Source: an uncultured cyanobacterium
GTDB lineage: Bacteria; Cyanobacteriota; Cyanobacteriia; Cyanobacteriales; Microcystaceae
Assembly: GCA_963807635.1 (NCBI GenBank)
Contig: CAWEDJ010000040.1
Coordinates: 1 to 64,000 of the forward strand
Direction: 5' to 3'
DNA: 64,000 nt
Each line of letters begins with the position of its first letter. The first letter of the stretch is position 1. The notes under the pieces are model-generated. The model was not told the DNA's origin, ran no database searches, and worked only from the letters and a program-made list of their open reading frames with translations. A program made the translations under genes and the position numbers. This document shows positions 1 through 22,556 of this stretch, one piece after another.

Positions 1-180
1 AAGCAGGTTTTTATATTTGGTTCACATTTAGACTACATTTTTCAACGAACTCTAATGCGTGAAAGGCTTGTCTTATAAGAACTTCGATAACTAAAGATGT
101 TATCTCAATCCTTTGATTGTTAAACCAAATTTAAAATATTGATTTTTACCGCTAAGGGGCCGCGCAGTACTGAAAAAAAA

Positions 181-398
181 GTGGATTCCTCCTTGATCGG
201 AGGTGATTTAGTAGCCATAACTGTGGTAAACCCACACCACTTAATGCTGGGTGCAACCTTATTCCCGTCCGAAAACAGCAGCTTCAGGGTGTACAGCTAC
301 TAGGGTCAGAAAGCAAAACTGTCTTCCAACAGTCAAACTAACCCGTTTCTCACCGATCAGAGGTTTACGAAGAAACATGACCGATGGTGCTTTTAATT
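181..398 (-). ncRNA. Type V-K CAST tracrRNA (ends approximate)
   Basis: Minus strand carries blocks typical of V-K tracrRNAs: GGGTTAGTTTGACTGT..ACAGT, GCTTTCTGACCCTAGTAGCTG, CACCCTGAAGCTGCTG, CCCAGCA, GGCTACTAAATCACCTCCGATCAAGGAGGAATCC followed by a T-run. Directly downstream of cas12k. Confidence 0.88.
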
Positions 399-404
399 AA
401 TTCT

Positions 405-433
405 ATTATATTGTCAAGGTTCAGTGTTGTAAC
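405..433 (-). promoter_or_regulatory. Putative tracrRNA promoter
   Basis: CACTGAACCTTGACAA-TATAAT on the minus strand between the cas12k stop and the tracrRNA; perfect -10 TATAAT at 410-405. Confidence 0.55.
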
Positions 434-437
434 ATTT

Positions 438-2339
438 TCATGAATGAATTCGGGCATGGTAGGCCGCGATCGCCATTACCTTTGCCTCTTCTTGGGGACT
501 ACCGCGAATCACTTGCTTTTCCTCTTCAATGACGATGCCGAATTTAGTAGCTTGGGCAGTAATATTTTGGATTAATCTGCCATAGCTCCATTTGTGGATA
601 TTCATTCGATATTCTTTGGCATAAGCTTTTTGAGCTTCGATGGAACCAGCAATTTTTTCTTCTGCTCTGACTTGGATTTCTGATTGAACAATTTCTCGAA
701 TATTAGTTAATTTGGGTACAACAATGCTTCCCGCATGATAAACCTGAGCTAACTGAACAATAGCTTGGGCTAAAAGGCGATCTATCTGTTGACCTAACTC
801 TGACTCGCCAAACTGAGAAGAGGCTCCTTTCCTTTGAGCTTTATGGCGATCATGCGTATGAGCTTGCTTCTGTTGTCTTTGAAGATTCAGTAAATTATAA
901 TTTTTCCCCAGTAATTGTTTGATACTCCGATAGGCGATCGCTTTCCCTGTGATGCCATCGACTAGGGCAACTGTTGCAGGTTTTTCTAAACCAAAGGCGA
1001 CTCCAAGCAGAATATGGGAATGTCCTTGATACAAAGGCTGACTCGGACGAGGAAAGGGATTCGCCATTCGGGTCAATGTCGAGTTTTTTCGTTGAACAAA
1101 GGATTGTTGTTGTTCGCTTAAATCTCCTTTTTCTTTCATTGTGGTGAGTATTTTAGCCACCTCACCCGCTTTTTCCTGACGCACTAAATCCGTTCCTTCT
1201 GCACTCCAGAAACGGGTATCGAGGGTACAATAAAGGGCTAAATGATGAAGATTCCAAGGATCTCCTTTCCCATTTCCCTCTTGCCATCCAATTCGTCCAG
1301 AACGGAGAGTAAATAAGGCACTGGAATGTTGATTTTTGCCCTCTCTTTTGATTTGCTGATCTTCAAGAAAACGATTAAACCACTTCAGTTGGCGTTGATC
1401 ACAATAGATCTCAAAAAAATGCTCGCTTAATCCATTGAAATGAACACAGAGGCGACCTTTCTCGTTTTTACTCCAAATTAGGTCTTCATTGGTTACAAAA
1501 TCTATGGGATAAGGAAGGACTTGGGAACGAGTCAGCAGTTTATCTTGCCAGGAACGAACTTGATTAGTGTCGGTAGTGGCTGTTTTACAAGCCACAATCA
1601 ATGTTTCTAGCCACTGTTGCCCCGTTAAATCCCTCCCTTGAGGAAGGCTGCCTTCGAGTTGATCGGTAAGACGTTGAGTTTTGATTTCTGCTTTACGACG
1701 ACGTTGCCTGAATTTTTTACTATCCTCTTTCTGGCTAGGTAATTTACAACCATTTTTTAACAAATAGGCGATCGCGGAACGAATTTGTACGTCTTCTGTT
1801 TTACGGTAAGCATCGAACAATAATTGAGATAAAGAGAGGTTTTCTTTACTTTCCCCCTTTTTCTTGGCTTTATTTACCTTCTTAATCGGCAGAGCTTCAG
1901 CTTGCGGTGTTAAGTTCGTCAAGATGTTCGAGGCTTTAGCCTGAATTTCCTCGAAGCTTAAATTACTGAGTTGGATCAATTCTTCATCACTTTTGAGAAT
2001 TTCCAACCATTTTTTTTGCCCATCCACTTGAGATTGCAAGCGTCTCTGAATTTTAAGCCACGATTTGAAGATATATTCAACTAGATTAGTGGCTGAGGTA
2101 TAAAATCTTGCGGGTTGACCGATAAAACGAGGATCTGCCTTTAGAGATTTTCCTAATGTAGTAATAATTCCTGCTTTGGGCTTGCCAACTTGCCGCCACT
2201 GTTCAAAGTCGGGATGTTCTCTCACCTGGGCTAAAAGCTCATTGATAAACGGGGTGTTCAGTTTGGTCATCAAGTCCCAAAGATATTGACGGGAGGCTTC
2301 TTGTGCAATGAGGCGACAGTGGATTGTAACTTGGCTCAT
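438..2339 (-). CDS. cas12k: Type V-K CRISPR effector Cas12k (C2c5)
   Basis: ~633 aa; N-terminus MSQVTIHCRL..LMTKLNTPFINELL; PFPRPSQPLYQG; degenerate RuvC-I (LLGVAFGLEKPATVA, catalytic Asp absent); HKWSYGRLI. Start taken at ATG 2339. Confidence 0.95.
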   Translation of the reverse strand: MSQVTIHCRLIAQEASRQYLWDLMTKLNTPFINELLAQVREHPDFEQWRQVGKPKAGIITTLGKSLKADPRFIGQPARFYTSATNLVEYIFKSWLKIQRRLQSQVDGQKKWLEILKSDEELIQLSNLSFEEIQAKASNILTNLTPQAEALPIKKVNKAKKKGESKENLSLSQLLFDAYRKTEDVQIRSAIAYLLKNGCKLPSQKEDSKKFRQRRRKAEIKTQRLTDQLEGSLPQGRDLTGQQWLETLIVACKTATTDTNQVRSWQDKLLTRSQVLPYPIDFVTNEDLIWSKNEKGRLCVHFNGLSEHFFEIYCDQRQLKWFNRFLEDQQIKREGKNQHSSALFTLRSGRIGWQEGNGKGDPWNLHHLALYCTLDTRFWSAEGTDLVRQEKAGEVAKILTTMKEKGDLSEQQQSFVQRKNSTLTRMANPFPRPSQPLYQGHSHILLGVAFGLEKPATVALVDGITGKAIAYRSIKQLLGKNYNLLNLQRQQKQAHTHDRHKAQRKGASSQFGESELGQQIDRLLAQAIVQLAQVYHAGSIVVPKLTNIREIVQSEIQVRAEEKIAGSIEAQKAYAKEYRMNIHKWSYGRLIQNITAQATKFGIVIEEEKQVIRGSPQEEAKVMAIAAYHARIHS

Positions 2340-2345
2340 TTTTTG

Positions 2346-2398
2346 AACAAAATTGTTTAATACAAACACAAGTGTATTTTAGCATTCTTTTATAAGAT
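2346..2398. promoter_or_regulatory. Divergent cas12k/cvkR promoter region with candidate CvkR operator
   Basis: Palindromes AACAA-AA-TTGTT (2346-2357) and ACAC-AA-GTGT (2366-2375); TAAGAT -10-like hexamer 7 nt before the cvkR ATG. Confidence 0.4.
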
Positions 2399-2405
2399 CG
2401 GCTAT

Positions 2406-2858
2406 ATGGAAAAAAGTTTTTTTAGCAGCAAGGAAGCCGCGATTTTAACGGAATGTACTTTGCGCCAGTTGCAATATTGGCGTGAAAGTGAAGTTATTGT
2501 GCCAGCAGTTGGTGCAACAGGGACGGGAAAGAGTATTTATTACTCCTATCGTGAGTTGGTTGAGTTGGCATTGATGAGATATGTATTATTTCTAGGGTTG
2601 AGCTTTGATGTGGCACGAAATATTTTGCGATCGCTCAAGGAAAAGGTTCCAGAATATGCAAATCCTGACATAAAGGTACGATTAATGTTAATTTGGGACA
2701 GTGGTTCGGGAATATTGGACTTGATAGAATTTGAACGTGAACAGGCGATCGCGTTTCTAGATAACGGTCAGCCGATTATTCCATTGTGGTTGGATCTTAT
2801 CCATCAGAAATTACAGCAGCAATTGATAGAAAAAGATTCGGTTATGTCTAATAAATAG
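2406..2858 (+). CDS. cvkR: MerR-type CAST repressor CvkR
   Basis: FFSSKEAAILTECTLRQLQYWRE MerR HTH; divergent from cas12k, the usual V-K arrangement. Confidence 0.85.
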   Translation: MEKSFFSSKEAAILTECTLRQLQYWRESEVIVPAVGATGTGKSIYYSYRELVELALMRYVLFLGLSFDVARNILRSLKEKVPEYANPDIKVRLMLIWDSGSGILDLIEFEREQAIAFLDNGQPIIPLWLDLIHQKLQQQLIEKDSVMSNK

Positions 2859-2908
2859 TAAATAGTCCAAAAATCCATTGTTTGGAGAATCAAAAGTAGG
2901 TTGGTAGC

Positions 2909-5117
2909 TTGAGTAACGAAACAGATGCCCGAATCATTATTGATGACCAATTGCGTCAAGCAGGGTGGAATCCTGCCGACAAGACTCATGTTCTAACTGA
3001 AGTCAAGACAGACAGGGGTAAACCTGACTATGTTTTGCTGGATCAAAGAGGGCGATCGCTGGCCGTTATTGAAGCAAAAAAAGATGCGATTGATCCCTAT
3101 ACAGCAAAACAGCAAGCTCTACCCTATGCCCAAAGTTTAAAGGCTCCCTTTATTTTCTTGACCAATGGAGAACTGATTTATTTTTGGGATTATCTCAATG
3201 ACGATGCTCGGCTCGTTAACTCTTTCTTTTCGCGGCGAGACCTAGAGCGTTTGGTAGAAATGCGCTCAAATAGTAAGCCCTTAGCCACGATCGCCATTCC
3301 TGAATACTACCTAAGACAAGGGGAAACCCGTGAAGTCCGTCCCTACCAACAGGAAGCAATGCGGGCAATGGATCATGCTCTTGAGTTGGGTAAACGGCGT
3401 TTTTTGATTGAATTGCCAACGGGAACAGGAAAAACTGACCTCATTTGTTTACAGATCAAACGGTTGATTGATGCGGGTATTGCGGAAAAAATTCTGTTTT
3501 TAGTGGATCGGGAACAACTGGCCAAACAGGCGAGGGAATCTATCACAGATATTCTGCTGCAATACGATAGCTATTGGTTAAAGCCAGGAATTGTGCGGCA
3601 AGAAAAACAAATCACGATCGCCCTCTTGCAGACAATGATTGGGCGTTATCCCGAATTTACCAGTGGTTATTTTGACATTGTGATTGCTGATGAATGTCAC
3701 CGTTCTATTTATGGGGTTTGGCAAACGGCCCCTCACCTACTTTGATGCGTTTCATTTGGGCTTGACAGCAACTCCCGCAGGCTACATTGACCGCAATACC
3801 TTTAATTTTTATCAATGTCGCAATGAACAGCCCGATTTTTCCTATCCCATCCAGGATGCCTTTAAAAGTGAGTATTTAGTCCGCTATACCTTTGCCAAGG
3901 GGATCACCGAAATTTTGGCTGACGGGGCAGAGAAAGATGGTGTGCAGTATGATCCAGCGCCTTTGAGCGCAAATGGACGAATGAAGATACCAATCGCTTG
4001 ATGATGGAGGAATTTGATCGGTTGGCTTGGGGCAATTATTTGGAATTAGCTCCTGACCAGAAAATTGGCCCTGGTAAATCCATTGTTTTTGCCATCACGA
4101 AAAGTCATGCGGCCCGATTAACCCGTTATCTGAATGAACTCCATCCCGAATGTAAAGGGAAATATGCCGAGGTGATCACGAGTGATGCTGGCCAATGCCG
4201 ATGACTTAATTCGTCGCTTCAAGTACGAGGATTATCCCCAGGTCGCGGTCAGTGTGGATATGCTCAGTACGGGTTTTGATTGTCGGGAAGTGTTGCATTT
4301 GGTCATGTGTTGTCGCATTCGTAGCCCGATTTTATATCAACAAGTGCGGGGACGGGGAACGAGGGTCGCGCCTCACATCGGTAAACAGCGATTCATGATC
4401 TATGACTTTTTTCGTAATCACCAACATTTCAACGATAGCGATGAGGATTTTTTTGCTGGTACGGGAAGAGGTAGCAGTTCGGGCGGTTCAGGTGGTGGCC
4501 CCCGTTCTCCCAGAGAATTAATCGAATTGGGAATCGGCGATCGCTGGAAGGAGGCTGTGCAGTATGTAGAAATCGGTAATGAGGGGGAACAACTCGATAA
4601 ACGTCGCTATGTCACTATTTGGAAAGAAACCATCAATAATCAGGTATCAGAGGATTTAATTTTACAGAAAATTCGACTAGGTGAGTTCTTAACGGAAGAA
4701 GAAGAAAATCAAATAGAGCAGCAGCTTAACCAACCCAAATATTATTTCAATGAGGAGAATTTGCGCCGAGCTTACAACAATCCGCAGAGTAATCTGATTG
4801 ATTTTATTAAAGCCGCTCTGAAACTGATTAAGATTAAGAGTATTGCTGAACAAAAAGAAGAAAATTTTAGGGCATGGCTGATTATATAATCTTTTACGCC
4901 AGAACAAGCCAAATATCTGTCCTTGCTCAAGAATCGAGGTATCGCTAAAGGAAAACTGAGTCTCGAAGATCTTTTTCAGCCGCCCTTATCCGTTTTGAAT
5001 GCGGCAGGCTTAGGGATAGAATTGTTTGGAGAGCAGGGATTGAAGGATCTGTTCGATGACTTAAATCGTTCCGTTTTTCTCAACGACGCAACGGAAATGG
5101 CTAAGGAAGCAGTATAA
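2909..5117 (+). pseudogene. hsdR: Type I restriction enzyme R subunit, split into ~5 ORFs by frameshifts (possibly sequencing indels); CAST cargo
   Basis: PDYVL..VIEAKK nuclease motif, PTGTGKT Walker A, DECH box, LGLTATP, MLSTGFD, QVRGRGTR across successive frames. Confidence 0.85.
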
Positions 5118-5122
5118 AACTC

Positions 5123-6107
5123 ATGGATCAAGATTTACGGCGCAAACTCGACGGTCTCACGGACACTCTCTGGGCAGGAGGGATTACCAATCCTGTTACC
5201 TACATCGAGCAAATTTCCTATCTAATTTATCTAAAATTGTTGGATGAGGAGGAGTCCCAGCGAGAATTACGCGCTCGTCTCACAGGGAAAGATGATGATA
5301 CAAAATTATTGTTTCCTCAACAAGCAGAACGCTATCGGTGGTCAAAATGGCGATTTAAAAGCGGAATGGATCTGAGGGATTTTCTGCGGGATGAGGTGTT
5401 TCCCTACATGGCTAATTCCCTGATTAAAGATGCGCCCAAGGTAGCGGATTATTTTCGGGATGCGGTACTAGAGATTAATGATCCGAATGTACTAAAAACG
5501 GTGATTGATAAGTTGGATGCCCTCGAACTCAGTAAGTTGGGGCAAGACATTAAGGGGGAAATTTTTGAGTATTTACTGACTCATTTAGGACAATCGGCAT
5601 TAAATGGTCAATTTCGCACTCCTCGTCAGATTCTCTCTTTCATGGTGGAGATGGTTGATCCAGAGTTTGGGGATAGCATCTGTGACCCTGCGATGGGGAC
5701 AGGGGGCTTTTTAATTGATTCCTTGGATTATATTTTGGCAAAATATAGTGAAAATCCCGTTGAGATTCCCATTTATGGAGAGGATTGGCTGGATAAGCGG
5801 GGTCAAAGTCTGGCAGAGGCGAAAAAAGAATTACCGAATTTACAAACCTATCGCAAAGGGATTAGGGACAAGTTACCAGATTGGAAGCTGTTGGAATCTT
5901 CTATTTATGGCTTTGATGTATCGCGGCAAATGTTACGCATTGCGATGATGAATTTGGTTCTCCATGAGGCGAAGAATGCCAAAATCAAGCTGGCCAATGT
6001 TTTATCTGATCTGGGGGGATTGAGTGAGGATGATTTGCGTCGTCGCTATAAGGTGATGTTGGCAAATCCACCGTTTGCGGGAACATTGCCCAAGGATTCG
6101 ATTCGAG
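5123..6107 (+). pseudogene. hsdM: Type I R-M N6-adenine methyltransferase M subunit, 3'-truncated by a mobile element
   Basis: GQFRTP, DPAMGTGGF (SAM motif I), NPPF (motif IV). The ORF runs into an inverted-repeat element at 6108. No C-terminus and no hsdS follow. Confidence 0.85.
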
Positions 6108-6457
6108 CCCACGTTCCGCAGGTGCAAAAGAACTTTTAAACAATTTTAAAATCCTTACAGAACAAGGGTTGTGCGAATTACTGTCTTATTCATGGGCTTA
6201 TACTAAACCGAAAAATAGGCTTATCGTGATAGTGAATCCAGCAAGTATCTTTTTTCTGATGACGAATGCTCTCATTTTGTTTGATGAAAAAATTAACAGT
6301 AGAGAGAAATATTTCTAGCCGAAAAGTCTTCAAAGCTTTATCACATAGGAAACGCAGCTTTTTCAGAAGTATTCCTGACCCAACAAACTAATCTACGGAA
6401 AGAAAAAGTAGTACAAATGTATTATCTTGTTCCTTGAGTCAACCTGCGGAATGTGGG
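6108..6457. mobile_element. 350-bp non-autonomous element (MITE or internally deleted IS1634-like)
   Basis: 16-bp TIRs CCCACGTTCCGCAGGT (6108-6123) and ACCTGCGGAATGTGGG (6442-6457), one mismatch; no transposase; no matching TSD. Confidence 0.7.
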
Positions 6458-6460
6458 TTA

Positions 6461-7409: not shown

Positions 7410-7551
7410 TATATGCTATTTAAATGACTAATAGCTTAGGAGAATTTCAAATATTGAAACATTTACAAGAGAAAAAAGAAGAAATTGAGGAGATTAAGTT
7501 TGTTAATTGTACTCATTAATCTTTCTGCCCTGCTTCAGCATATTTTAGATT

Positions 7552-8219
7552 TTAAGCCATTTTATTTAAAATATCCTGAGCAGTTTGGGCAACTTGTTCA
7601 AAGGGATCTTGGGCTAATTCTGTTAACACCTTTTCTACCTTGTCTTTCTCAAATTGTCCTAACGCGATCGCCAATCGAAAACGAACTTGCCAATCTTCAT
7701 CTTTCGCTAAAGGTAATAACAAAGGAATCGCCTCAGAAATTTGTAAATCCCCTAAAGCACTAATGGCCGCCGTCCGAATTAAACTATTTTCTGAATTTAA
7801 AGCAATTTTGAGTAAATCAAAACCCCTGGCATCGCCCATTTTCCCAAAGTTGCGATAATACTCATCTGCAACAGCCACTCTGGAGTCGTTTCATAAACTT
7901 TTTGTAAATCTTCATAGGCTTCCGTGAGCTTTAGCCCCCCAATCACATCGGCGGCAACGGATTTGACATCAACTTCTGGATCATTAAAAAGGCGATCGCG
8001 CAGTAAAACCAAGGCTTCCGAGGGATTTTCCTGACCTAAAGGATCGAGTTGACCAACGGCGGCGTAGCGAATTCGGGGATTAGAATCATTAATGAGGGGT
8101 TTCACCATCTCAAACGCCAATTTAGGCTCGATTTGTCTGAGTTGATTGAGACCACGCACGCGATCGCTGAAGGAATCAGAACTGAGTAATTGTTGAACGG
8201 ATTCAGGGGTAACACTCAT
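7552..8219 (-). CDS. nblB: NblB-like HEAT-repeat phycobilisome degradation protein (apparent frameshift ~7845)
   Basis: MSVTPESVQQLLSS..DRVRGLNQLRQ; HEAT repeats; the two ORFs join by one base. Confidence 0.75.
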
Positions 8220-8434
8220 TTTTGATAAAATCTTAAAAATAAATATTGCCTATTGTCCCATTCAGACAGCCCAGAAAAACGCTTCGTAACTGAATATTAA
8301 GATTTAAGCCCGAAGTCGCATTTTTATTAATGACACCAATAATCAGTATTTTGCAATTTAATACATCACAAGAAAACCAAGCCTCGACGCTCAATTAAAA
8401 GTGCTTAACAAGTGCTTGACCGAAAAAATTGAGA

Positions 8435-9514
8435 TTAATCATCCATCTGCCAGGGTTCTAACAGATTATTCTCATCAAAAATCCGTTTAGGTCGCAATAC
8501 CACGATCGCCTGACCGATAATTTCGACCGTCGGAGCGGACTCAAACCAATCGACCTTGACGTTTTCTCCTTCCTCTACCAAGAAAAATCCATCTTCATCC
8601 CATTCCTTGGCCGCCCGATCAATGACGACGAGAACAGTTTCATTTTTGTTGGTTAATGCGTCCGATAATTCGCCACTTTGACAGAAAAATGCGATGGGAT
8701 CAACCGCTTTTAGGACAATTTGCCAGCCAGGAAGCGGCACGACCGCTCCAGAGCCTGAATATTCCACCATGCCAAAGGGTTCAATAATATTTACTGCTTG
8801 AACCGCATTAATTTTCTCACGGGTTAGGGGCCAAGTTCCCGCGACAGGAACCAATCGCGACAGCTCCTCATCATTTTCGACACGATGGAGGGGAATCAAT
8901 GGAGCCTTACGGGTTGGAGTGACGGACAAATCGCTCAATAATTGTTCGATCGCCGTTCTAGCAGAGGGAGAATGGGCAAATTTTAAACCCTTCGCAATCA
9001 AACGAGTTCGGGTTTGCAGGTTTTTAGTTTGTCGGGCAGATTTCCAACATTGATAGGCGATCGCATCTCCAGGATGGTCGGTAAATCCAGAGGGTAACTG
9101 GGAAAAACGAGTAAATTCCTGAATGGCTTTGGCTAATTCCTTGGCGACCTCATTATCTAGGTTTTTCTCATAGGCCGTTTCGGCGGCGGCGGCACGTCTT
9201 TTGTGATTGAGGACGCGAAATTCATACAGTACATCACTTTTCGGGCCAAGAAAATAGTTTAAAATCGTTTCTGACACATTAGAATTCACTAAACTTTCAT
9301 AGACCTGGGAAGCAACAATAATTAAATTTTGCTGTACCTTCTGGAATCCTGTTTTTTCAAAGATTATTTCGGCAGAATAACCCGCTTTTTGGAGTTTTTG
9401 GCAACCTTTTCCCCATTCTACCCAGTTTCCTTCTTTGTGCAGTAGCGATCGCATTAATTCAGTAGCGACTTCTTCGGAGAGGACTTGCTGGGATTCGGGG
9501 AGATGCTCGTTCAT
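8435..9514 (-). CDS. raf1: RuBisCO accumulation factor 1
   Basis: LLHKEGNWVEWG..QNLIIVASQVY; C-terminus LRPKRIFDE..WQMDD. Confidence 0.92.
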   Translation of the reverse strand: MNEHLPESQQVLSEEVATELMRSLLHKEGNWVEWGKGCQKLQKAGYSAEIIFEKTGFQKVQQNLIIVASQVYESLVNSNVSETILNYFLGPKSDVLYEFRVLNHKRRAAAAETAYEKNLDNEVAKELAKAIQEFTRFSQLPSGFTDHPGDAIAYQCWKSARQTKNLQTRTRLIAKGLKFAHSPSARTAIEQLLSDLSVTPTRKAPLIPLHRVENDEELSRLVPVAGTWPLTREKINAVQAVNIIEPFGMVEYSGSGAVVPLPGWQIVLKAVDPIAFFCQSGELSDALTNKNETVLVVIDRAAKEWDEDGFFLVEEGENVKVDWFESAPTVEIIGQAIVVLRPKRIFDENNLLEPWQMDD

Positions 9515-9707
9515 GGAAAGAAATAACGGGGGGATTTCAGAAAAAAGCTTAACTAGCTCAACTTCAATTGTGCCATGATTCAGTAGCTCTCTTTCTGCAA
9601 TTTCTACCTCAAAAGCAAGTGTTAATAAAAGTTTGTAGAAATCTTACCCAAAATAGATACAACTCTTTACGAATTCAGGAGTTTCGTAAAACTTTGCAAA
9701 CACGTTC

Positions 9708-10631
9708 TTAATTCGCTGAAAGAATCTTAGTTAATGAAGACTTTAAATTAGGATACTGAAACTCAAAACCCGTTGATTGGGTTGCCTTGGGTAAAACTTC
9801 TTGTCCTTCTAAAACTACCTGGGCCGCTTCACCCAGCAGAAGTTCGATCGCAAAATCGGGAACGGGTAGCCAAGAAGGACGATTTAGAACACTGCCTAAG
9901 GTTTGACAAAGTTCGTTCATGCGGACGGGATTTGGAGAAGTCGCATTAAAAGTTCCCTCCATATTCGATTGTTTCAAAGCAAAAATAATCAAATTAACCA
10001 AATCATCCCGATCAATCCAGGAAAACCACTGACGACCATTGCCAATGGGGCCACCTGCAAACAGTTGAAAAGGCGGGATCATTTTGGCTAACGCTCCACC
10101 GTTACCAAGAACAATCCCGAAACGCAAAATGACGGAACGCACATTCAAGGCTTTAACCTTTTTTGCTTCTGCTTCCCATTCTTGGCAAACCTGAGCTAAA
10201 AAATCTTTGCCTGAAGGACTACTCTCTGTAAAAGTTTCCGTTTCACTAGAGCCGTAATAACCGATCGCCGACGCATTAATTAATACTGTCGGTTTAGATT
10301 CTGCTTGACTAATGGCTTCTACAATTTTTTGAGTGCCTAACTTACGACTTTCTAAAATCGCTTTTTTATATTCGGGTGTCCATCTTTCGGCGATCGCTTC
10401 TCCTGCTAAATTGATAACAGCATCACAACCAGAAATCGCTTTTTGCCACTCCCCCGATTGGGTCGCGTCATAGGCAACGACTTGGAGATTAGGATAGGCA
10501 GACATCGGGAAGAGACGTTGTGCTTTTTGAGGATTACGAGCCAAAATCACTAGGGAATGATTTTCACTGTTTAATTCTGCTACTAATTCTGTTCCGACGA
10601 ACCCCGTCGCACCTGCAATTGCAATTTTCAT
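9708..10631 (-). CDS. thyD: TIGR01777-family epimerase (SulA-like/ThyD)
   Basis: [34 protein letters not shown]. Confidence 0.85.
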
Positions 10632-10734
10632 GAAAGATATTACCCGATTGTTTGATTGATTTTATGATAAAAAATAGCTGAAAATACTGATTTTAGTTAG
10701 GGATAAAGTTATCTAAAATCAGCTTGAAAAAAGA

Positions 10735-11166
10735 TTAAGCCTTATCTTGATAACCCATGCCATTGGCTTCTGCGTAACGATTCATGAAACGCATAAACCG
10801 TTCCCAATGGTCATCTTCATAGATTTCAAAGCCGCATTTAACCCCCTTTAGATCATCTCCATCATCTCCTCCGAAAATAAACTTTAAAGAAGAGGGTTCC
10901 GCACTGATTTCACCCTCAGAATCCTTAAGACGGATTGAGCCATGAAATTCGTTAGTAAAACTCTGGAATTTTTTGATCGCTTTCAGATTTTGGAAGGTAA
11001 ATAAAACCGTGCGATCACCTGTTTGTTTATTTTTCCGTAAACTCACATTACTTAAGGTTTCGGGTAATCCCGCAAAAAATTCGATAGTCGGTTCAATGCT
11101 TGGTTCAATGATTGTTTCAATGGCTGGTTCAATGGTTTCTTCAACGGAAGGAGTTGTATCTGACAT
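10735..11166 (-). CDS. psb28-2: Photosystem II assembly protein Psb28-2
   Basis: IEFFAGLPETLSNVSLR...WERFMRFMNRYAEANGM. Confidence 0.85.
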   Translation of the reverse strand: MSDTTPSVEETIEPAIETIIEPSIEPTIEFFAGLPETLSNVSLRKNKQTGDRTVLFTFQNLKAIKKFQSFTNEFHGSIRLKDSEGEISAEPSSLKFIFGGDDGDDLKGVKCGFEIYEDDHWERFMRFMNRYAEANGMGYQDKA

Positions 11167-11244
11167 GATAAAAACCTCAATTTATACAAGTTGATTAAAA
11201 GTTTTAAGAAAAAATTATAAAAAAAAGTGATTACATTACCAAAA

Positions 11245-11356
11245 TGTAGGGGCGTATTGCGTACACCCTTGGATTAATCTATCGATTAATTAACGTTTTT
11301 TGGGTACAATCCCCCCGATCAACTAAAGATTTTGGGCGCAAGCCTTGCGCCCCTAC
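11245..11356. repeat. Inverted pair of GTAG-type REP palindromes (REPIN-like)
   Basis: TGTAGGGGCGTATTGCGTACACCC facing GGGCGCAAGCCTTGCGCCCCTAC, intergenic. Confidence 0.65.
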
Positions 11357-11491
11357 GGTTGAATAAATATATATTTGTTTGACAATTTTTAAAAGCTAAT
11401 TAGAAAGAAATAATTTAAAAATTATTCTGATAATTTGAGATGAAGAATGAAGAAAAATTTCTCTCTCCATTCTGTCTCAATTAGGGAAAAA

Positions 11492-11602
11492 TTACTCTTC
11501 GCCGCCTTGTAATTTGAGGATCAACAATCCCCAGGCTAAACCCACCAAAGTGAGAACGATAAGAAGGATTGCACCGTTAAATAACATACTTTCTGCGGTC
11601 AT
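11492..11602 (-). CDS. petM: Cytochrome b6f subunit PetM (36 aa, not in the ORF track)
   Basis: Manual translation [44 protein letters not shown] upstream. Confidence 0.9.
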
Positions 11603-11741
11603 GTTTATGTCTCCTGGAATAAGAAATTAAGGTTTTTAGGTAAAAAATTGAAGAAGGATTATTTTTCGATGGTGAGTTTATTAACGGTTGAGGATAACCA
11701 TTATTGCTATTGTAGAACAACTAGGCTCTCCAAATCTGACT

Positions 11742-12779
11742 ATGGCTCCATCCCTTCCTCGTCTTGCTCTCACCCTGGGCGATCCCTCTGGCATCGGTAC
11801 AGAAGTTATTCTCAAAGCGTTGGCGGATTCCGCGATCGCCCAATTGGCTCACCTTACCCTCGTCGGTACACGATCGCTGTTAAACCGTTCCTATCTCAGG
11901 CTCAAACAACAGGGGCTAGAGGTTGCTGATCCTGAAAAATTCTCCCTTTTGGAAGTTAGTTTAGACAAAAATACGGAAGCTCAACTCCAATTAGGCCAGG
12001 GGAATGGGGCCAGTGGTGCGGCTAGTTTTGCCTATCTAGAGACCGCGATCGCCCAAACCTTGGCGGGAAATTTTCAGGGAATTGTCACGGCTCCGATCGC
12101 TAAATCAGCTTGGAAAATGGCGGGTTATGATTTCCCTGGACAGACAGAAGTTTTAGCAGAACGTTCTCAGATCAAAAAATTCGGGATGCTTTTTGTGGCG
12201 CGATCACCTTATACAGGTTGGACAATGCGTACCCTGTTAGCAACCACCCATATTCCCCTAAATCAAGTTTCGGCAACCCTTACGCCTGAGTTGATGAGTC
12301 TTAAACTAGAGTTATTGGTGCAAACTTTGCAAGATGATTTTGGTCTTGCCTATCCGACCATTGCGATCGCGGGTTTAAATCCCCACAGTGGCGAACAGGG
12401 ACAAATTGGCACAGAAGAACAGGATTGGTTAATGCCTTGGTTAGAGCAAGCCCGTCAACACTTTCCCAAGGTGAAATTGATTGGCCCCGTTCCCCCTGAT
12501 ACGCTCTGGGTTAAGCCTGGGCAAGCTTGGTTTAAGGATGGTAATATTCAATCAGCAGATGGTTATTTAGCTCTTTATCATGACCAGGGTTTGATTCCCG
12601 TAAAATTAATGGCTTTTGATCAAGCGATTAATACAACCATTGGTTTACCGTTTATTCGCACCTCTCCTGATCATGGCACTGCTTTTGATATTGCCGCTCA
12701 AGGAATTGCTAGGGCTGATAGTATGAAAGCCGCGATCGCATTGGCCGCAGAATTAGCCCAATCCCGATTTTGCAATTAA
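11742..12779 (+). CDS. pdxA: 4-hydroxythreonine-4-phosphate dehydrogenase
   Basis: [33 protein letters not shown]. Confidence 0.95.
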
Positions 12780-12828
12780 ATGAAAAAATATTAAAATACG
12801 TTTAAATCCATGACATGGAGATTGAAAT

Positions 12829-14390
12829 ATGCCCGTCAAAATTGCGATCGCTCAAATTCAAGTAGCCCCTGGTCAACGGCTGATATTGGAGAATATTAGC
12901 TGGCAAGAGTTTGAAGAGATTTTAGACGATTTAGGAGAACATCGTCATTCCCATATTGCCTATTACCGAGGAATTTTCGAATTTCGGATGCCATTACCAG
13001 GACATGAACGAGCTAAAGTCTTGATTGGAGACTTATTGAAAATCATCCTAGATGAACTAGGGCGTGTCATCAATTAGGGGGGTTGACATTAGTGGCAAAT
13101 AATGCGCAGAGTATGAAATGACACAATATACGTTGAAGAGAGGTGTGAATATGACGAGGCGTTATGCGTTGCGGGATGACCAATGGGAAAGAATCAAAGA
13201 GCTATTACCTGGAAAAGAGGGAGATGTGGGAGTAACAGCCAAAGATAATCGTTTGTTTGTTGAAGCCGTATTATATCGATATAGAGCGGGCATTCCTTGG
13301 AGAGACTTACCCGAAAGGTTTGGAGATTTTCGAGTGATTCACACGCGTTTTACGCGATGGACGAAATCAGGGGTGTGGGAAAAGGTATTCAAGCACTTAG
13401 CGCAGGACGCTGATAATGAATACGCAATGATAGATGCAACGATTGTGAGAGCGCATCAACACAGTGCAGGAGCAAAAAACAGTAGCGCAGAGGAAGAAGA
13501 TATAGGAAGGAGTACAGGAGGATTAAGTACGAAAATCCATGCCGTAGTAGACGCATTAGGGAATCCAGTCTCTTTTTTCCTAACGCCAGGTCAAGCGTGT
13601 GATTTAGACGGAGCCGATGTGCTATTGCCTGATGTAGAAGCAGAAGCGGTGCTAGGGGACAAAGCCTATGACGCAGACGATAGAGTCATTAAGGTTCTAG
13701 AAAAAAGAGGGATAGTGCCTGTGATACCCTCGAAAAGTAATCGAAAAGAACCTCGCCCTTATGATACATTTTTGTATAAAGCGCGTCATTTAGTCGAAAA
13801 CTTCTTTGCGAAACTCAAACAATATCGTGCGCTTGCGACTCGTTACGAGAAGCGCTCAGCCAATTTTCTAGGCGGCATCTATCTGGCCGCATCAGTTATA
13901 TGGTTAGCGTAGCCCAGTTTGAACAGCATAATTATTCACTAATGTCAAGTGTGTTAATTGATGACACGCTCTAGGTCTAGAATGGGAATCTTTGGGTTCA
14001 ACGACTTTTAAAAATCAAGCAATGCAAGCAGGAATTGAACCTGATGATTGTTTTTACATTCAGAATTATCAAACAATGATAGGGAAACAACGTCTCGATC
14101 TGACAGTTGATCCTGTTCCTGATTTAGCGATCGAAGTAGATTTTACATCCCTTGCTCAGGTTAGTGCTTATCAAGCGTTAGGGGTCTCTGAAATCTGGTG
14201 TTATAAAAAAGGAAAGTTAGAAATTAGTGTCCTAGAAAATGGTCAATATGTGAATGCCTTAACGAGTAAAGTGTTTCCTGATTTACCTGTGCTTGAAGGA
14301 ATTTCTCTCTTTCTGGAAAAAAGTGGAGAAGTGCCGATGAGTGCATTGCGACGAGAATTTCGTCAATGGTTAAGGGATTATCTGGTATAA
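12829..14390 (+). pseudogene. Uma2-family endonuclease interrupted by IS5
   Basis: Removing 13060-13971 plus one TA restores ILDEL-GLEWESLGSTTFK..GIEPDDCFYIQ..PDLAIEVD. Confidence 0.9.
13060..13971 (+). mobile_element. IS5-family element (IS427-like), copy 1; transposase 13118-13912
   Basis: TIRs GGGCGTGTCATCAATTA / TAATTGATGACACGCTC; TA duplication in CTAG; WRDLPERFG, IDAT..RAHQH, GDKAYD, ENFFAKLKQYR. Confidence 0.92.
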
Positions 14391-14490
14391 AACAGGATTA
14401 CATCGCATTTTATATACTTGAGAAACGCGTAAAGAAGAATTTTTTGTATTTATCGACAGTTTAAAATTAAAATAACTAAAAGTTTAACGT

Positions 14491-14790
14491 TTAACCGACG
14501 GGATTAGTCCTAGCTTGTCGAACCATCGCAATAAGGGTTTGATGGGCATCTTCGGAATCCGTTAGAGTATGATCAAATTCAATTCGCAATGTATCTTTTT
14601 TTTCCTGAATTTGAATCGATAAATTCATTCCCTGGGCATCAATAGATAACATTTGAGCCGTTTCTGTTTCAGGTTGATTGCCATAGACCTTGGCGTAAAG
14701 CGCGATCGCTTCGGCGTGGTCTTCGTTCATGTGTTTACAAATGCGATCGCTGATAGCGGGAGTGAGGAGGTCAGCCATAGATTTTGACAA
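14491..14790 (-). CDS. DUF2470 domain protein (heme/GluTR-binding-like)
   Basis: SDRICKHMNEDH..AHQTLIAM. Confidence 0.8.
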   Translation of the reverse strand: MSKSMADLLTPAISDRICKHMNEDHAEAIALYAKVYGNQPETETAQMLSIDAQGMNLSIQIQEKKDTLRIEFDHTLTDSEDAHQTLIAMVRQARTNPVG

Positions 14791-14996
14791 TATAAATTTT
14801 TACACTATAAAAAATTGCGATACCCATTAATATAACAGCCCTGGGGGAGAAAATTCGGCAATACAGAAGAAAGCGTGCAAGGAAACTCAGATTAGATTAG
14901 GATAGACTTAGGGCAATTTGTGGATTGGATAGTTAAACTTCCATTTAAAAATCATCCCAAAAACCTATAAAAATAATCGCGATTGGCAGAACATCA

Positions 14997-15224
14997 ATGC
15001 AGAAACGACCTTCTTTTGATTCTTCTCAAGTTATGTACCGTTCCGAAGACCTCCTAAGAGCGGCTTCTAATCGTTACCACATAACGGTTTTGGTGGCTAA
15101 TCGAGCTAAACGTCGTCGTTATGAAGATCTGGACAGCATTGATGATCCGATGATGAAACCCACGATCCGCGCCATTATCGAAATGTCCGATGAACTCACC
15201 CAGCCCGAAATTATTAGTGATTAA
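14997..15224 (+). CDS. rpoZ: RNA polymerase omega subunit
   Basis: [33 protein letters not shown]. Confidence 0.92.
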
Positions 15225-15269
15225 AAGTGGGCGTTAGCATAGGACAAATCTAAGCAAAAACTAGCAATC

Positions 15270-15929
15270 ATGACCTTTCAATCTAAAACTCAAAAAATTA
15301 TAGAGGTTCTGCTTGGTCAAAAGCAAAATTTAACGAGCAGGATTCTATCGTTTTTTTTGTTAGCCCTGCTTGGTCTAAGTTTAGTTTTGGGGTTAGGAAC
15401 CCATCATAATTCCTCCGCGATCGCCCAAAATCCGCCCACCGTTCCTAATACCTCTTCAATTCGGGCAGAAGGAGCCGCCGCGATTGTTTATCAACAACTG
15501 CCGTACTTGCCCAAGGAAAACGAGTATCGTCGCAAGGAAACAGGAGAAATCGACCCCGAACATACCCTAATTAGTCGATTTATTCGTTATAATCAGGATT
15601 TAAAAAAGCGGACAAATCGCTATCGTTTTGACTGGAAACTCACCCTAGCGGATTATTTAGGGGTGAATGAAACGATTGATCCCCAAACCTATCCTGGGAG
15701 TGTCACCCTCGCCACCAATCCCTTTGAAACTGACGCTAAGGCCATTCAGGCATTAAATCGTCGTCAACGTCAAGAATTAGTGGATTTATTAGCTTTTATT
15801 TATAAACCTCAAGCCACAGAAAAACCTGCTAAAACCAAGATTTCCCCGACACCCCAATCCACTCCCAAGGATGAGTCAGGCAAGCCTTCTCTCGCTAAGC
15901 CTGGGGATGCTCAACTATTAATGCCTTAG
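15270..15929 (+). CDS. Conserved cyanobacterial exported hypothetical protein
   Basis: Hydrophobic N-terminal segment; YQQLPYLPKEN, RFDWKLTLADYLG; in the rpoZ-DUF1818 gene cluster. Confidence 0.7.
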   Translation: MTFQSKTQKIIEVLLGQKQNLTSRILSFFLLALLGLSLVLGLGTHHNSSAIAQNPPTVPNTSSIRAEGAAAIVYQQLPYLPKENEYRRKETGEIDPEHTLISRFIRYNQDLKKRTNRYRFDWKLTLADYLGVNETIDPQTYPGSVTLATNPFETDAKAIQALNRRQRQELVDLLAFIYKPQATEKPAKTKISPTPQSTPKDESGKPSLAKPGDAQLLMP

Positions 15930-16046
15930 TGTCTTTATTTATTCGCGCAGGTAGAAAATGGTATGAAAAGGTGTAAAACAAGAGAATGAAAAAGATTGGA
16001 AAGGATTCTAGTGATGAGTATAGCCGAGCGAGAAAAACAAATCCTG
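15926..16046 (+). mobile_element. Truncated extra left end of the IS256-family element
   Basis: ~121 bp nearly identical to 16048-16167 (one SNP, GAATG vs GAATA). Confidence 0.85.
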
Positions 16047-17429
16047 GTTAGTGTCTTTATTTATTCGCGCAGGTAGAAAATGGTATGAAAAGGTGTAAAA
16101 CAAGAGAATAAAAAAGATTGGAAAGGATTCTAGTGATGAGTATAGCCGAGCGAGAAAAACAAATCCTGCGTGTGAGACAGCAAGGTTTTCATCCTCAACT
16201 AAACGAAGCTTTAACCTCAAAGTTAAAGACAGAAGTGGTGGATACGGTCAAAACGGTTTTAGAAAGTGCCTTGAAGGAAGAAGTGACAGAATTTATCAAG
16301 GCAAGAGAGAAAAAAACGTATCGCTCTGGGTACTATTATCGTGGAGTAAACACTCAATATGGACAGATAAGTGATTTAGCCGTCCCCAAATTAAGAGAGG
16401 GGAATAAAGAAAGAGAATGGCAGATTTTAGAAAGATATCAGCGAAGTCTGGGAAATTTATTGGATTGGATGTGTGTTCTCTATGTGATGGGGCTATCCTT
16501 ACGAGATTTGCAGGAGGCTTTATATTTGATATTAGGAAAAGTACTATCGGTAAGTGCGGTGAACCAGATTACTCTTAATGTTCAGAAACAACTAGAAAGT
16601 AAAAGACAGGTTCCTCTGGTCAGAATCCCCAAGATGATTTTAGTGGATGGAGTCTGGGTAGAGATTCAGTACACAATGGCTGGGGAGTTCAAAGAAGACG
16701 AATCGGGACATTTAAGGCAATGTCGGCAAGTAGAAAAGCGTGTGGTGTTGGCAGTAATGGCAATCTGGGAAGATGGTTCGCAGGAATTAATCCACTACGA
16801 AGTAGCTGAAACGGAGAGTGAAGCCGCTTGGACAAAGGTATTTGAGAGCTTGATAAGACGGGGACTAAACCCGAATCATCTCGAATTACTAGGCAGTGAC
16901 GGTAGTTTGGGATTACCCTCCGCCATGAAGAAATGTTTCCCTTTGGCTCAACAACAACTCTGTATTACTCACAAAATTAGAGGAATTGAGCGTCACCTTA
17001 ACTATTACCATCTACCTTCGGTAACTGCTGCTGGCTGCTCTCTGAAACAGAAAGAGGCACGAAAACAACGTTCCTTCGAGAGCACTTCTGATGCTTACAA
17101 GATTTATCAAGCCCCTCAAGTCTCCGATGCTCAATCACTTTTAAAAGCCTTTGAGGAGAAATGGCAACCGATTGAACCAGATGCAGTTCGTACCTTTCTC
17201 AAAGATATTGAGTTGACCTTCACCTTCTACCAATTTGATGACTCTTTGCACCGGCATCTTCGCACGACTAACCATCTCGAACGCCTATTTCGAGAGTTTC
17301 GCACTAAGTCTGATGAAATTGGGGCTTTTCCTAACGAAACTAGTTGTCTAGCTCTCTTTTGGCTTGTTGTCGAGCGTGACCATGCTAAACATGACCGTAG
17401 AAACTACGCGAATAATTCATGACACTAAC
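16047..17429 (+). mobile_element. IS256 (Mutator)-family element, copy 1; transposase 16118-17422
   Basis: TIRs GTTAGTGTC..TTATTCGCG / CGCGAATAA..GACACTAAC; ATTAATGC(C) repeated outside the composite element; VPKLR, LVDGVW, SDG, RTTNHLER motifs. Confidence 0.88.
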
Positions 17430-17443
17430 ATTAATGCCTTAGT

Positions 17444-17812
17444 ATGGAAAATCGGGTATTCAAAGAAGCAGACGGTTGGCGCATCGGGTTTAATCCTAAT
17501 CCTGCAACTTACCAAGGATTGATCGGGGGTCAGGATTGGGCGATCGAATTGACCTTGGCGGAATGGCAAGATTTTTGTCGATTGGTCAGTCAATTAAGCG
17601 AAACAATGCAAGCGATCGCCGCTGAATTGATGGACGAAGAAAAAATCACCTGTGAAGCGGAAAGTGAGCTAATGTGGCTAGAAGTGACGGGTTATCCCCA
17701 ATCCTATTCTCTACGGTTTATTTTGAATCAGGGACGTTGTTGTGAAGGGCAATGGCCGCATGGAGTTGTGCAAGATTTCATTCAATCTTTACAAACCCTG
17801 ACTTTTTTTTAG
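17444..17812 (+). CDS. DUF1818 family protein
   Basis: GWRIGF..GLIGGQDWAIELT..ELMDEE..LWLEV-like motifs. Confidence 0.85.
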   Translation: MENRVFKEADGWRIGFNPNPATYQGLIGGQDWAIELTLAEWQDFCRLVSQLSETMQAIAAELMDEEKITCEAESELMWLEVTGYPQSYSLRFILNQGRCCEGQWPHGVVQDFIQSLQTLTFF

Positions 17813-17834: not shown

Positions 17835-17903
17835 TGTACAGTAACTAATTATTTGTCATTGTAACGAACTCGTGTCATCGAAACAACAAAGCTCTAAAAC
17901 TTT
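17835..17903 (+). mobile_element. Orphan Tn7-like/V-K CAST terminal end, truncated by ISNCY
   Basis: TGTACAG terminus followed by two TnsB-site-like repeats, TAACTAATTATTTGTCA and TAACGAACTCGTGTCA. Confidence 0.75.
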
Positions 17904-20707: not shown

Positions 20708-21605
20708 GTCATCAATTAATACACTTGACATTAGTGGATAATTATGCTGTTCAAGCTGGGCTACGCTAACGATATAACTAAAAATGATGCCGCCTAGAAA
20801 ATTGGCTGAGCGCTTGTCGTAACGAGTCGCAAGCGCACGATATTGTTTGAGTTTCGCAAAGAAGTTTTCGACTAAATGACGCGCTTTATACAAAAATGTA
20901 TCATAAGGGCGAGGTTCTTTTCGATTACTTTTCGAGGGTATCACAGGCACTATCCCTCTTTTTTCTAGAACCTTAATGACTCTATCGTCTGCGTCATAGG
21001 CTTTGTCCCCTAGCACCGCTTCTGCTTCTACATCAGGCAATAGCACATCGGCTCCGTCTAAATCACACGCTTGACCTGGCGTTAGGAAAAAAGAGACTGG
21101 ATTCCCTAATGCGTCCACTACGGCATGGATTTTCGTACTTAATCCTCCTGTACTCCTTCCTATATCTTCTTCCTCTGCGCTACTGTTTTTTGCTCCTGCG
21201 CTGTGTTGATGCGCTCTCACAATCGTTGCATCTATCATTGCGTATTCATTATCAGCATCCTGCGCTAAGTGCTTGAATACCTTTTCCCACACCCCTGATT
21301 TCGTCCATCGCGTAAAACGCGTGTGAATCACTCGAAAATCTCCAAACCTTTCGGGTAAGTCTCTCCAAGGAATGCCCGCTCTATATCGATATAATACGGC
21401 TTCAACAAACAAACGATTATCTTTGGCTGTTACTCCCACATCTCCCTCTTTTCCAGGTAATAGCTCTTTGATTCTTTCCCATTGGTCATCCCGCAACGCA
21501 TAACGCCTCGTCATATTCACACCTCTCTTCAACGTATATTGTGTCATTTCATACTCTGCGCATTATTTGCCACTAATGTCAACCCCCCTAATTGATGACA
21601 CGCCC
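20708..21605 (-). mobile_element. IS5-family element, copy 2 (outer 6 bp of one TIR lost; transposase 3' end altered)
   Basis: Near-identical to 13060-13971; TIR begins GTCATCAATTA directly after the ISNCY end; a 3' indel extends the ORF to 20633. Confidence 0.9.
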
Positions 21606-21607
21606 TA

Positions 21608-22440
21608 AAATATTCTTAATAATTTATTAGCTACATTTTCTACAAGTGAGAATCTGGGCATTGGTTTAAAAGCTCATTGTATTAAAATATGGTCAAACAC
21701 TCTTACTATTCTCTCTTATGTTGAACTTAATGACGATTCTACAAATAAACTTTATAAGTGTCTAATTAACTCTTTGGATACTCCACAGTGGTTTAACTTA
21801 TCTGAGTCTATAAACAGATTTATCGTTTATCAAGTAAATAGGTATAGAAACAGCCCATCTGTTGAACATTTAGTAATTTTATGTGAACGACAGATTGAAA
21901 AATTAAATCAAAGTAATAATATTTCAATCAAAGAAGATGGAAGTCTATTTGCAAATCTTATACATTTAATTAAAGAGTCAAATACAGAAGGATCTAAAAA
22001 TTTACAATTATTTGCAAGTAAAAATGGTAAAGAGATAGAAATTTTTATTTTGAAAGTTTCAGAAATGCAACTTAATCAGAGACTTCGTGTAATTAATAAT
22101 TTTGTTTTTGTCATATATATGCTAATTGACGATGTAAATCTAAAAGAAAAGATTAAAAAATTGTTGATAGATACATATAACGAAATAAAAAGAGATGATG
22201 GATTTGAGAAGATATATATTTACGGTTTAGTTTTTTATGATTTGAAATTATTAGAGAAAGATGAGCTAACTTCTCTTTTAGAGAGACTAGAAAAAAGGTA
22301 TTCTATCCAGGACTTATATGTCCATTAAAGAACAACTGTTAAGACTTCCAGAAGATATTCTTAACGACTATAAAGAACTAATTGAAAATGTCATAAAGCT
22401 AAGTGATAGGACAGAAAAATTTTTTAACCTAAAAGAATAA
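21608..22440 (+). pseudogene. AT-rich C-terminal gene fragment, 5'-truncated by IS5 and frameshifted ~22325
   Basis: Open frame from the IS5 junction through 22328; an alternative frame continues IKEQLLRLPED..FFNLKE* to 22440; no recognisable motif. Confidence 0.5.
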
Positions 22441-22556
22441 ATTAGTATGGCATAGTAAGAGTTTTGTAACTTGATCAAATGCGATCGACTTTTTAGCTAA
22501 AAGATTATAATCTCAAAATAAGCTATTCAGTATTTTAGTTTACCCAAGGAAATATT

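What the first reader, a model, noticed from the sequence alone, without database searches (positions are those of the whole stretch)
181..6107. Type V-K CAST targeting module (tracrRNA, cas12k, cvkR, R-M cargo) with no transposase genes in the window
Seen: an intact Cas12k ORF with a degenerate RuvC, a V-K-like tracrRNA, a divergent MerR regulator and type I R-M cargo that stops at an IS junction, followed by housekeeping genes. No tnsB, tnsC or tniQ in the remaining 58 kb. Known: Cas12k does not cut; it guides TnsB/TnsC/TniQ, normally encoded at the far end of the same element. Inference: a stranded RNA-guided DNA-binding module that is decaying, served in trans, or kept for another role such as repression.
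Basis: partly seen in the sequence, partly recalled or inferred. Interest (0 to 1): 0.8.

Follow-up and report, generated by a model that had tools for sequence, protein, structure and literature searches.

The report
Broken CRISPR-guided transposon remnant
This is the left half of a known kind of RNA-guided jumping gene in a cyanobacterium, torn apart by other mobile elements and cut off from its transposase genes, a common and already described fate.

Summary
In detail: tracrRNA (about 176-400), full-length cas12k (438-2339), divergent cvkR and type I R-M genes cut at 6107, with no tnsB/tnsC/tniQ in the window. The window begins at a contig end, so the array is unassembled. A congener carries the same module (87% identical) in a complete CAST with tniQ-tnsC-tnsB. 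The assembly's only tns operon belongs to a second, self-contained V-K CAST on C102. Both breakpoints sit in IS copies with mismatched flanks. So this is a recently IS-shattered V-K CAST whose tns operon is deleted or unassembled (genome 93.7% complete). Hsieh and Peters found a proximal tns operon for only 152 of 282 cas12k genes and read the rest as decay. The hsdR frameshifts are weak evidence of decay, because 48 of 124 control genes in this assembly are also frameshifted. Nothing supports a repressor role; service in trans from C102 is not excluded.

The parts
1..175 (-). Probable CRISPR leader; the array would start just beyond the contig end
   Evidence: In the congener (L006) and on C102 the first repeat lies about 250 nt after the tracr end. 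No V-K repeat outside C102 in the assembly at up to 8 mismatches. Inferred.
176..400 (-). Type V-K tracrRNA, both anti-repeat motifs present
   Evidence: ends approximate
438..2339 (-). cas12k, 633 aa, full length, nuclease-dead RuvC
   Evidence: 89% identical to the congener's protein, 42% to the C102 Cas12k
2406..2858 (+). cvkR (MerR-type regulator), divergent from cas12k
   Evidence: PF13411; position as described in PMC9938897
2882..5117 (+). hsdR cargo with three 1-nt frameshifts near 3730, 3956 and 4189, possibly assembly errors
5123..6107 (+). hsdM cargo, 5' 328 codons of about 543; the 3' part and hsdS are not found in the assembly
6108..6457 (.). 350-bp non-coding repeated element with terminal inverted repeats (MITE-like); 98-99% identical copy on C64
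6458..7411 (+). IS630-family element; its right flank (7412-7436) is the last 25 nt of a different IS630-type element
7437..17812 (.). Host block (HEAT-repeat gene, raf1 ... DUF1818) with two IS inserts, collinear with G004:C210; reversed relative to the expected left-to-right axis of the CAST
17835..17903 (+). V-K CAST right end, outer 69 nt only, reading inward to the right
   Evidence: First 31 nt identical to the right end of the congener's complete CAST; the inner TnsB-site cluster seen at +135 to +225 in both complete elements is absent
17904..21607 (.). IS cluster that cuts the right end: 1526-bp IS family copy (17904-20707) with nested IS3, then IS5
   Evidence: the window copy lacks the 9-bp duplication that the 6 of 6 other full copies have
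21608..22328 (+). 5'-truncated ORF in a 26% GC stretch, possibly leftover cargo
   Evidence: no match in 88 other genomes of the family; no Pfam; assignment to the CAST is a guess

Best explanation
An ordinary type V-K CAST homed to the 3' side of tRNA-Val(CAC), next to the DUF1818 gene: left end, array, tracrRNA, cas12k, cvkR, R-M cargo, tniQ-tnsC-tnsB, right end. Insertion sequences then landed in hsdM and inside the right end, and recombination between IS copies reversed the right end together with 10 kb of host DNA and removed the part from mid-hsdM to tnsB. What remains cannot move as a unit. cas12k and its tracrRNA are intact because the break is recent, not because they have a new job; if expressed, the complex would bind DNA through its guides without cutting or inserting. 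Shown: the parts, the two ends, the IS junctions, the intact relatives. Inferred: that C96 joins C40, the order of events, and the physical loss of tns.
For: Congener G005 holds the same module (86.9% nt over 5971 bp) in a complete element with tniQ-tnsC-tnsB and a right end. A contig of run X2 covers 1-6107 with 203 differences and runs on 946 nt past 6107 in sequence unlike the window. The assembly shows two cas12k genes, two left ends and two right ends. C102 accounts for one of each, with a matching 5-bp duplication, leaving C40 cas12k, the C96 left end and the 17835 right end. In G004 (97% identical, no cas12k found) tRNA-Val(CAC) and DUF1818 lie 49 bp apart. A GTT PAM in tRNA-Val lies 59 nt from the C96 end, against 62 and 63 nt for the two elements whose homing spacers are seen. 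The IS copies at both breakpoints have mismatched flanks. G019 (5 contigs) shows a similar split: left end-cas12k-merR 250 kb from an IS-broken tns operon with its right end. Published: 152 of 282 cas12k genes have a proximal tnsBCQ operon, the rest read as decay (10.1101/2021.02.06.429022).
Against: No read or contig joins C96 to C40. The 5-bp flanks of the C96 left end and the 17835 right end do not form a duplication; the complete G005 element lacks one too, so the test is weak. The tRNA-Val/DUF1818 adjacency is seen in 1 of 5 congeners, and the short G000 flanks differ from G004's 49-bp spacer. No reciprocal recombination product is in the assembly. The genome is 93.7% complete and IS-flanked pieces are easily lost. 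A copy of the same IS runs off the end of C22 with the 9-mer that matches the window copy's right flank, which fits a swap of flanks, real or made by the assembler.
Confidence: 0.65

Rival explanations
1. The tns operon of this element still exists in the organism, either detached by the rearrangement or contiguous and mis-joined by the assembler at the IS copies, and lies on DNA missing from the assembly. The element would then be an IS-riddled CAST, not a tns-less one.
For: 93.7% completeness, 107 contigs. Both junctions cross IS copies that are 99.9-100% identical to others (1.3 kb and 3.7 kb of repeat). Dead-end IS copies at the ends of C22 and C28 could supply the missing flanks. G019 keeps its detached tns operon. 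The assembly is error-rich.
Against: No trace of the hsdM 3' part, hsdS, addA/addB or a second tns set. Many full IS copies are assembled inside contigs with correct duplications. Even if tns exists, the MITE in hsdM and the IS at position 69 of the right end abut unique DNA.
Confidence: 0.25
2. The stranded Cas12k-tracrRNA acts as a second targeting module for the C102 transposase: it loads its own or C102's crRNAs and recruits C102's TniQ, TnsC and TnsB, sending the C102 element to extra sites.
For: A V-K CAST with both ends, array, homing spacer and tns operon is in the same organism; its flanks match G004 at 96-97%. Both anti-repeat motifs are the same in the two tracrRNAs. The outer 25 nt of the C96 and 17835 ends are close to the C102 left end.
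Against: The two Cas12k proteins are 42% identical, and C102 TniQ/TnsC/TnsB are 52/52/61% identical to the cognate-type set of G005. C102 has its own Cas12k. No copy of either element at another site is seen. C102 tnsC has a 1-nt frameshift near its 3' end, possibly an error. The one paper I read on orthogonality tested I-F against V-K, not V-K against V-K.
Confidence: 0.07
3. The module has been kept by the host as an RNA-guided repressor, as with domesticated TnpB proteins.
For: Nuclease-dead, full-length Cas12k with tracrRNA and regulator. Precedent for domesticated TnpB repressors (10.1101/2023.11.30.569447, search listing only).
Against: No guide is assembled. Of the 5 congeners searched, 4 have no cas12k match and the fifth has it inside a complete CAST. 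dN/dS is no lower than for the truncated hsdM. An intact 1.9-kb ORF is expected after a recent break. Hsieh and Peters report that tns-less Cas12k proteins do not branch apart.
Confidence: 0.03

Closest known systems
Type V-K CAST (ShCAST/Tn7747, AnCAST), CvkR-regulated group with the common tracrRNA
   Same: Order tracrRNA-cas12k-divergent cvkR-cargo; dead RuvC; R-M cargo; left end downstream of a tRNA with a GTN PAM 46-82 nt away (PMC9938897; here 59 nt).
   Different: No linked tnsB-tnsC-tniQ; right end truncated and reversed; array and homing spacer not assembled.
tns-less cas12k remnants of Hsieh and Peters 2021 (10.1101/2021.02.06.429022)
   Same: Relatively intact cas12k with no proximal tnsBCQ but with a transposon end and a tRNA site; 130 of their 282 cases.
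   Different: Here the right end and the IS breakpoints can also be located, and a second complete CAST shares the genome.
Domesticated TnpB-derived RNA-guided repressors (TldR; name recalled)
   Same: Nuclease-dead, RNA-guided DNA binder without a transposase beside it.
   Different: No conserved non-transposon context, no guide to a host promoter seen, transposon ends still present, closest relatives are whole transposons.

Membership tests
Type V-K CAST | Cas12k effector with inactive RuvC | tested here: met
   NF038191 930.6 bits; Ala448/Pro542 at ShCas12k Ser452/Pro546
Type V-K CAST | tracrRNA just downstream of cas12k | tested here: met
Type V-K CAST | Divergent small regulator (CvkR or Arc) | tested here: met
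   PF13411; the published CvkR box was not found at up to 2 mismatches in 2300-2450, nor in the congener
Type V-K CAST | CRISPR array and truncated homing spacer | tested here: inconclusive
   Contig ends 180 nt past the tracrRNA; no repeats outside C102; the congener has both
Type V-K CAST | Left end beside a tRNA with GTN PAM at homing distance | tested here: inconclusive
   Present on C96; link to C40 inferred, not shown
Type V-K CAST | tnsB-tnsC-tniQ next to the right end | tested here: not met
   Right end at 17835 has no tns genes; only C102 has them
Type V-K CAST | Complete, correctly oriented ends with a 5-bp duplication | tested here: not met
   Right end cut at 69 nt, reversed, flanks do not match; met by the C102 element
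Type V-K CAST | RNA-guided transposition activity | not testable with these tools
   Needs an integration assay
Domesticated RNA-guided repressor | Conserved host context without transposon parts, across relatives | tested here: not met
Domesticated RNA-guided repressor | Guide matching a host promoter or gene | tested here: inconclusive
   Own array unassembled; the 4 C102 spacers and the 35 nt after the last repeat have no full-length self match (best 17 of 18 nt, E 0.18)

The most novel reading that the evidence does not exclude
One cell holds two unlike Cas12k-tracrRNA targeting modules but a single TniQ-TnsC-TnsB set, and the stranded module still works: it shares crRNAs and the transposase with the C102 element, giving natural cross-talk between V-K systems, or it silences host or foreign DNA by guided binding.
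Probability: 0.08. Interest if true: 0.6.

Novelty: new member of a known kind. Interest (0 to 1): 0.17.

Why it matters
Mostly as a worked example of how V-K CASTs decay: IS copies break the cargo and the right end and rearrange host DNA, leaving an intact-looking cas12k. It also warns that a lone cas12k at a contig edge in an IS-rich, indel-rich draft should not be read as domestication. The pair of Cas12k proteins (42% identical) with one transposase set offers a ready test of whether V-K targeting modules and transposases can be mixed, which bears on engineering orthogonal CASTs.

Tried and rejected
Rfam: no tracrRNA family match. A covariance model of V-K tracrRNAs was not obtained, so the tracr call rests on alignment and consensus folding. 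Promoter scan of 100-2500: 3 sites against 4.5 expected by chance, uninformative. Sequencing runs: no RNA holder listed, so expression is untested; only assembled contigs of other strains could be laid (4 of 23 runs), none spanning the junctions. Metagenome scan for near-identical loci gave 2 distant hits, 52% and 45%. tRNA-Thr(CGT), the congener's site, was rejected as this element's site: it has no left end in G000. hsdR frameshifts as proof of decay were rejected: from 232 G004 ORFs, 124 passed the filters (108 dropped as multi-hit, under 90% identity or under 95% covered) and 48 of the 124 carry a net frameshift in G000, 0.43 per kb; three in hsdR has P = 0.07; 30 of 153 raw indel events touch GGCC against 1.9% of random windows. 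dN/dS as proof of retained function was rejected. Contamination as the source of C102 was rejected. A simple single inversion was rejected: DNA beyond the IS cluster maps to two other G004 contigs. The C22 link is only suggestive, since this IS also sits in an IS5 end on C90. Earlier scan notes: two look-ups, nothing returned. No folding or complex job was run, as solved Cas12k structures already match.

Full report
Setting. The window is the first 64 kb of contig C40 of a draft cyanobacterial genome, G000 (4.03 Mb, 107 contigs, N50 58.7 kb, 93.7% complete). Repeats of 0.6-5 kb at 97% identity or more cover 5.6% of it.

Observation. The ORF 438-2369(-), most likely starting at 2339, is a full-length Cas12k (NF038191, 930.6 bits), matching ShCas12k at E 3e-259, with Ala448 and Pro542 opposite Ser452 and Pro546. 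The stretch 176-400(-) aligns with eight other V-K tracr regions and shares their covarying structure, 29 of 56 pairs with two-sided change. A MerR gene follows divergently, then hsdR in pieces and 328 codons of hsdM. At 6108 a 350-bp MITE-like repeat begins, then IS630 (6458-7411), 25 nt from the end of another IS, and host genes. No CAST tns gene lies in the window.

The tns search. TniQ, TnsB and TnsC searches find one operon, on C102. It belongs to a separate element: right end at 13546, tnsB-tnsC-tniQ, cargo, a MerR-HsdR fusion, a 608-aa Cas12k, tracrRNA, five repeats, a 17-nt homing spacer to tRNA-Gly(TCC), left end at 32790 and a matching 5-bp duplication. Its flanks match the closest congener G004 at 96-97% and are adjacent there, so it is in the same organism. 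Its Cas12k is 42% identical to the window's.

What the intact element looks like. Congener G005 (loci L006 and L033, which overlap) has the same module at 86.9% identity up to exactly 6107, then the rest of hsdM, hsdS, further cargo, tniQ-tnsC-tnsB and a right end, with an array and left end at tRNA-Thr(CGT). A contig of run X2 covers 1-6107 with 203 differences, lacks two of the hsdR frameshifts, and continues 946 nt beyond 6107 in other sequence. So the cut is specific to this strain or assembly and recent.

The missing ends. A scan with the C102 left end found four V-K ends in the assembly: the two on C102, one at C96:92 beside tRNA-Val(CAC) at a contig end, and one in the window at 17835. 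The latter has its first 31 nt identical to G005's right end but keeps only 69 nt, lacks the inner TnsB-site cluster, and faces away from the cas12k module. In G004, where no cas12k was found, tRNA-Val(CAC) and DUF1818 are 49 bp apart, and one contig runs C96, then window 17812 to 7437, then C35. The two orphan ends thus bracket one insertion site, with a GTT PAM 59 nt from the left end (controls 62 and 63 nt). Against this: no 5-bp duplication (absent in the complete G005 element too), adjacency in 1 of 5 congeners, and no sequence joining C96 to C40.

Mechanism of breakage. The IS that cuts the right end has a 9-bp duplication in 6 of 6 other full copies but none here, and its right flank matches the left flank of a copy that runs off the end of C22. 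The IS630 copy likewise has flanks from two places. This is what recombination between IS copies, or an assembler's mis-join, leaves. DNA beyond the IS cluster maps to two further G004 contigs, so several events are needed. No reciprocal product, hsdM tail, hsdS or second tns set is in the assembly. I put real loss at about 0.65 and survival on unassembled DNA at about 0.25 (judgement, not computed).

Assembly quality. Against open G004 ORFs, 48 of 124 single-copy orthologues carry a net frameshift in G000 (0.43 per kb; 108 of 232 ORFs dropped by filters), and 30 of 153 raw indel events touch GGCC against 1.9% expected. That points to sequencing indels; the reading as long-read error at methylated motifs is from my own knowledge. 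Three frameshifts in hsdR (P = 0.07) and one in C102 tnsC (P = 0.30) are therefore weak evidence of decay, and a clean cas12k (P = 0.44) is unremarkable. dN/dS against G005 is 0.13 for cas12k, 0.12 for cvkR and 0.05 for the truncated hsdM: it records the intact past.

How common. Of 30 other genomes searched, 10 have a cas12k match over the cut-off. With one TnsB query, 6 of the 10 have tnsB on the same contig nearby (one only as a fragment at a contig start), 1 has them on different contigs, 2 gave no hit, and G019 has them 250 kb apart with tniQ broken by an IS. Hsieh and Peters (10.1101/2021.02.06.429022; parts 1-2 of 4 read, supplements not seen) found a proximal tnsBCQ for 152 of 282 cas12k genes and ascribe the rest to degradation rather than another function. 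Ziemann et al. (PMC9938897; passages and part 1 of 8 of one supplement) describe the same layout, frequent R-M cargo, CvkR-HsdR fusions and degenerate cas12k copies. PMC11406308 (passages) states that V-K elements move replicatively and that cointegrates can rearrange the host. PMC12416283 (part 1 of 5) and 10.1101/2020.07.17.209452 (passages) added no test of V-K to V-K cross-talk. Five searches listed no paper on a domesticated Cas12k; I saw listings only for the rest, and the library lacks most subscription papers.

Verdict. A recently fragmented type V-K CAST: it works like none now, and fails the membership tests for tns linkage and complete ends. Cross-talk with the C102 transposase (both anti-repeat motifs are shared) is the most novel reading left open. 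Interest 0.17.

Noticed in passing
G000:C102:13546-32790 (L013, L014): Complete V-K CAST at tRNA-Gly(TCC) with a MerR-HsdR fusion and a XisF-like large serine recombinase (NF041201, 258.8 bits, below the 375 cut-off) between the array and the left end. PMC11406308 says V-K CASTs have no site-specific recombinase; whether this one is cargo, a nested element or a cointegrate resolvase is open.
   Followed up: partly
G000:C102:16240-16320: tnsC ends about 20 codons early through a 1-nt frameshift at a GGCC site; probably an assembly error.
   Followed up: partly
G019:C1:707587-711200 and 957900-963500 (L096, L098): Left end-cas12k-merR module 250 kb from an IS-interrupted tns operon with its right end, in a 5-contig genome.
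   Followed up: partly
G002:C3:35348 (L063:5349): Orphan V-K left end beside tRNA-Gly(CCC), with no cas12k or tns match in the 40 kb fetched.
   Followed up: partly
L006:12425-15237: Array of about 14 repeats, long for V-K, interrupted by an IS; a second, decayed end-like sequence lies between the left end and tRNA-Thr(CGT), suggesting repeated use of the site.
   Followed up: no
window 7797-8219/7552-7878, 51778-52843, 54187-55804: HEAT-repeat gene, dTDP-glucose dehydratase-like gene and mutL-like gene are split by frameshifts; the first is whole in G004. Likely assembly errors; the last two names are from sequence recall.
   Followed up: partly
window 33588-36053(-): dnaX-like ORF with what looks like a mini-intein near residues 130-260 (recalled motifs).
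   Followed up: no
G000:C102:52000-57787: GC rises to 52-63% and HIP1 sites vanish at the contig end; rRNA or foreign DNA.
   Followed up: no
window 21608-22460: 26% GC stretch with a 239-codon open frame cut at its 5' end by IS5; no Pfam hit and no match in 88 other genomes of the family.
   Followed up: partly
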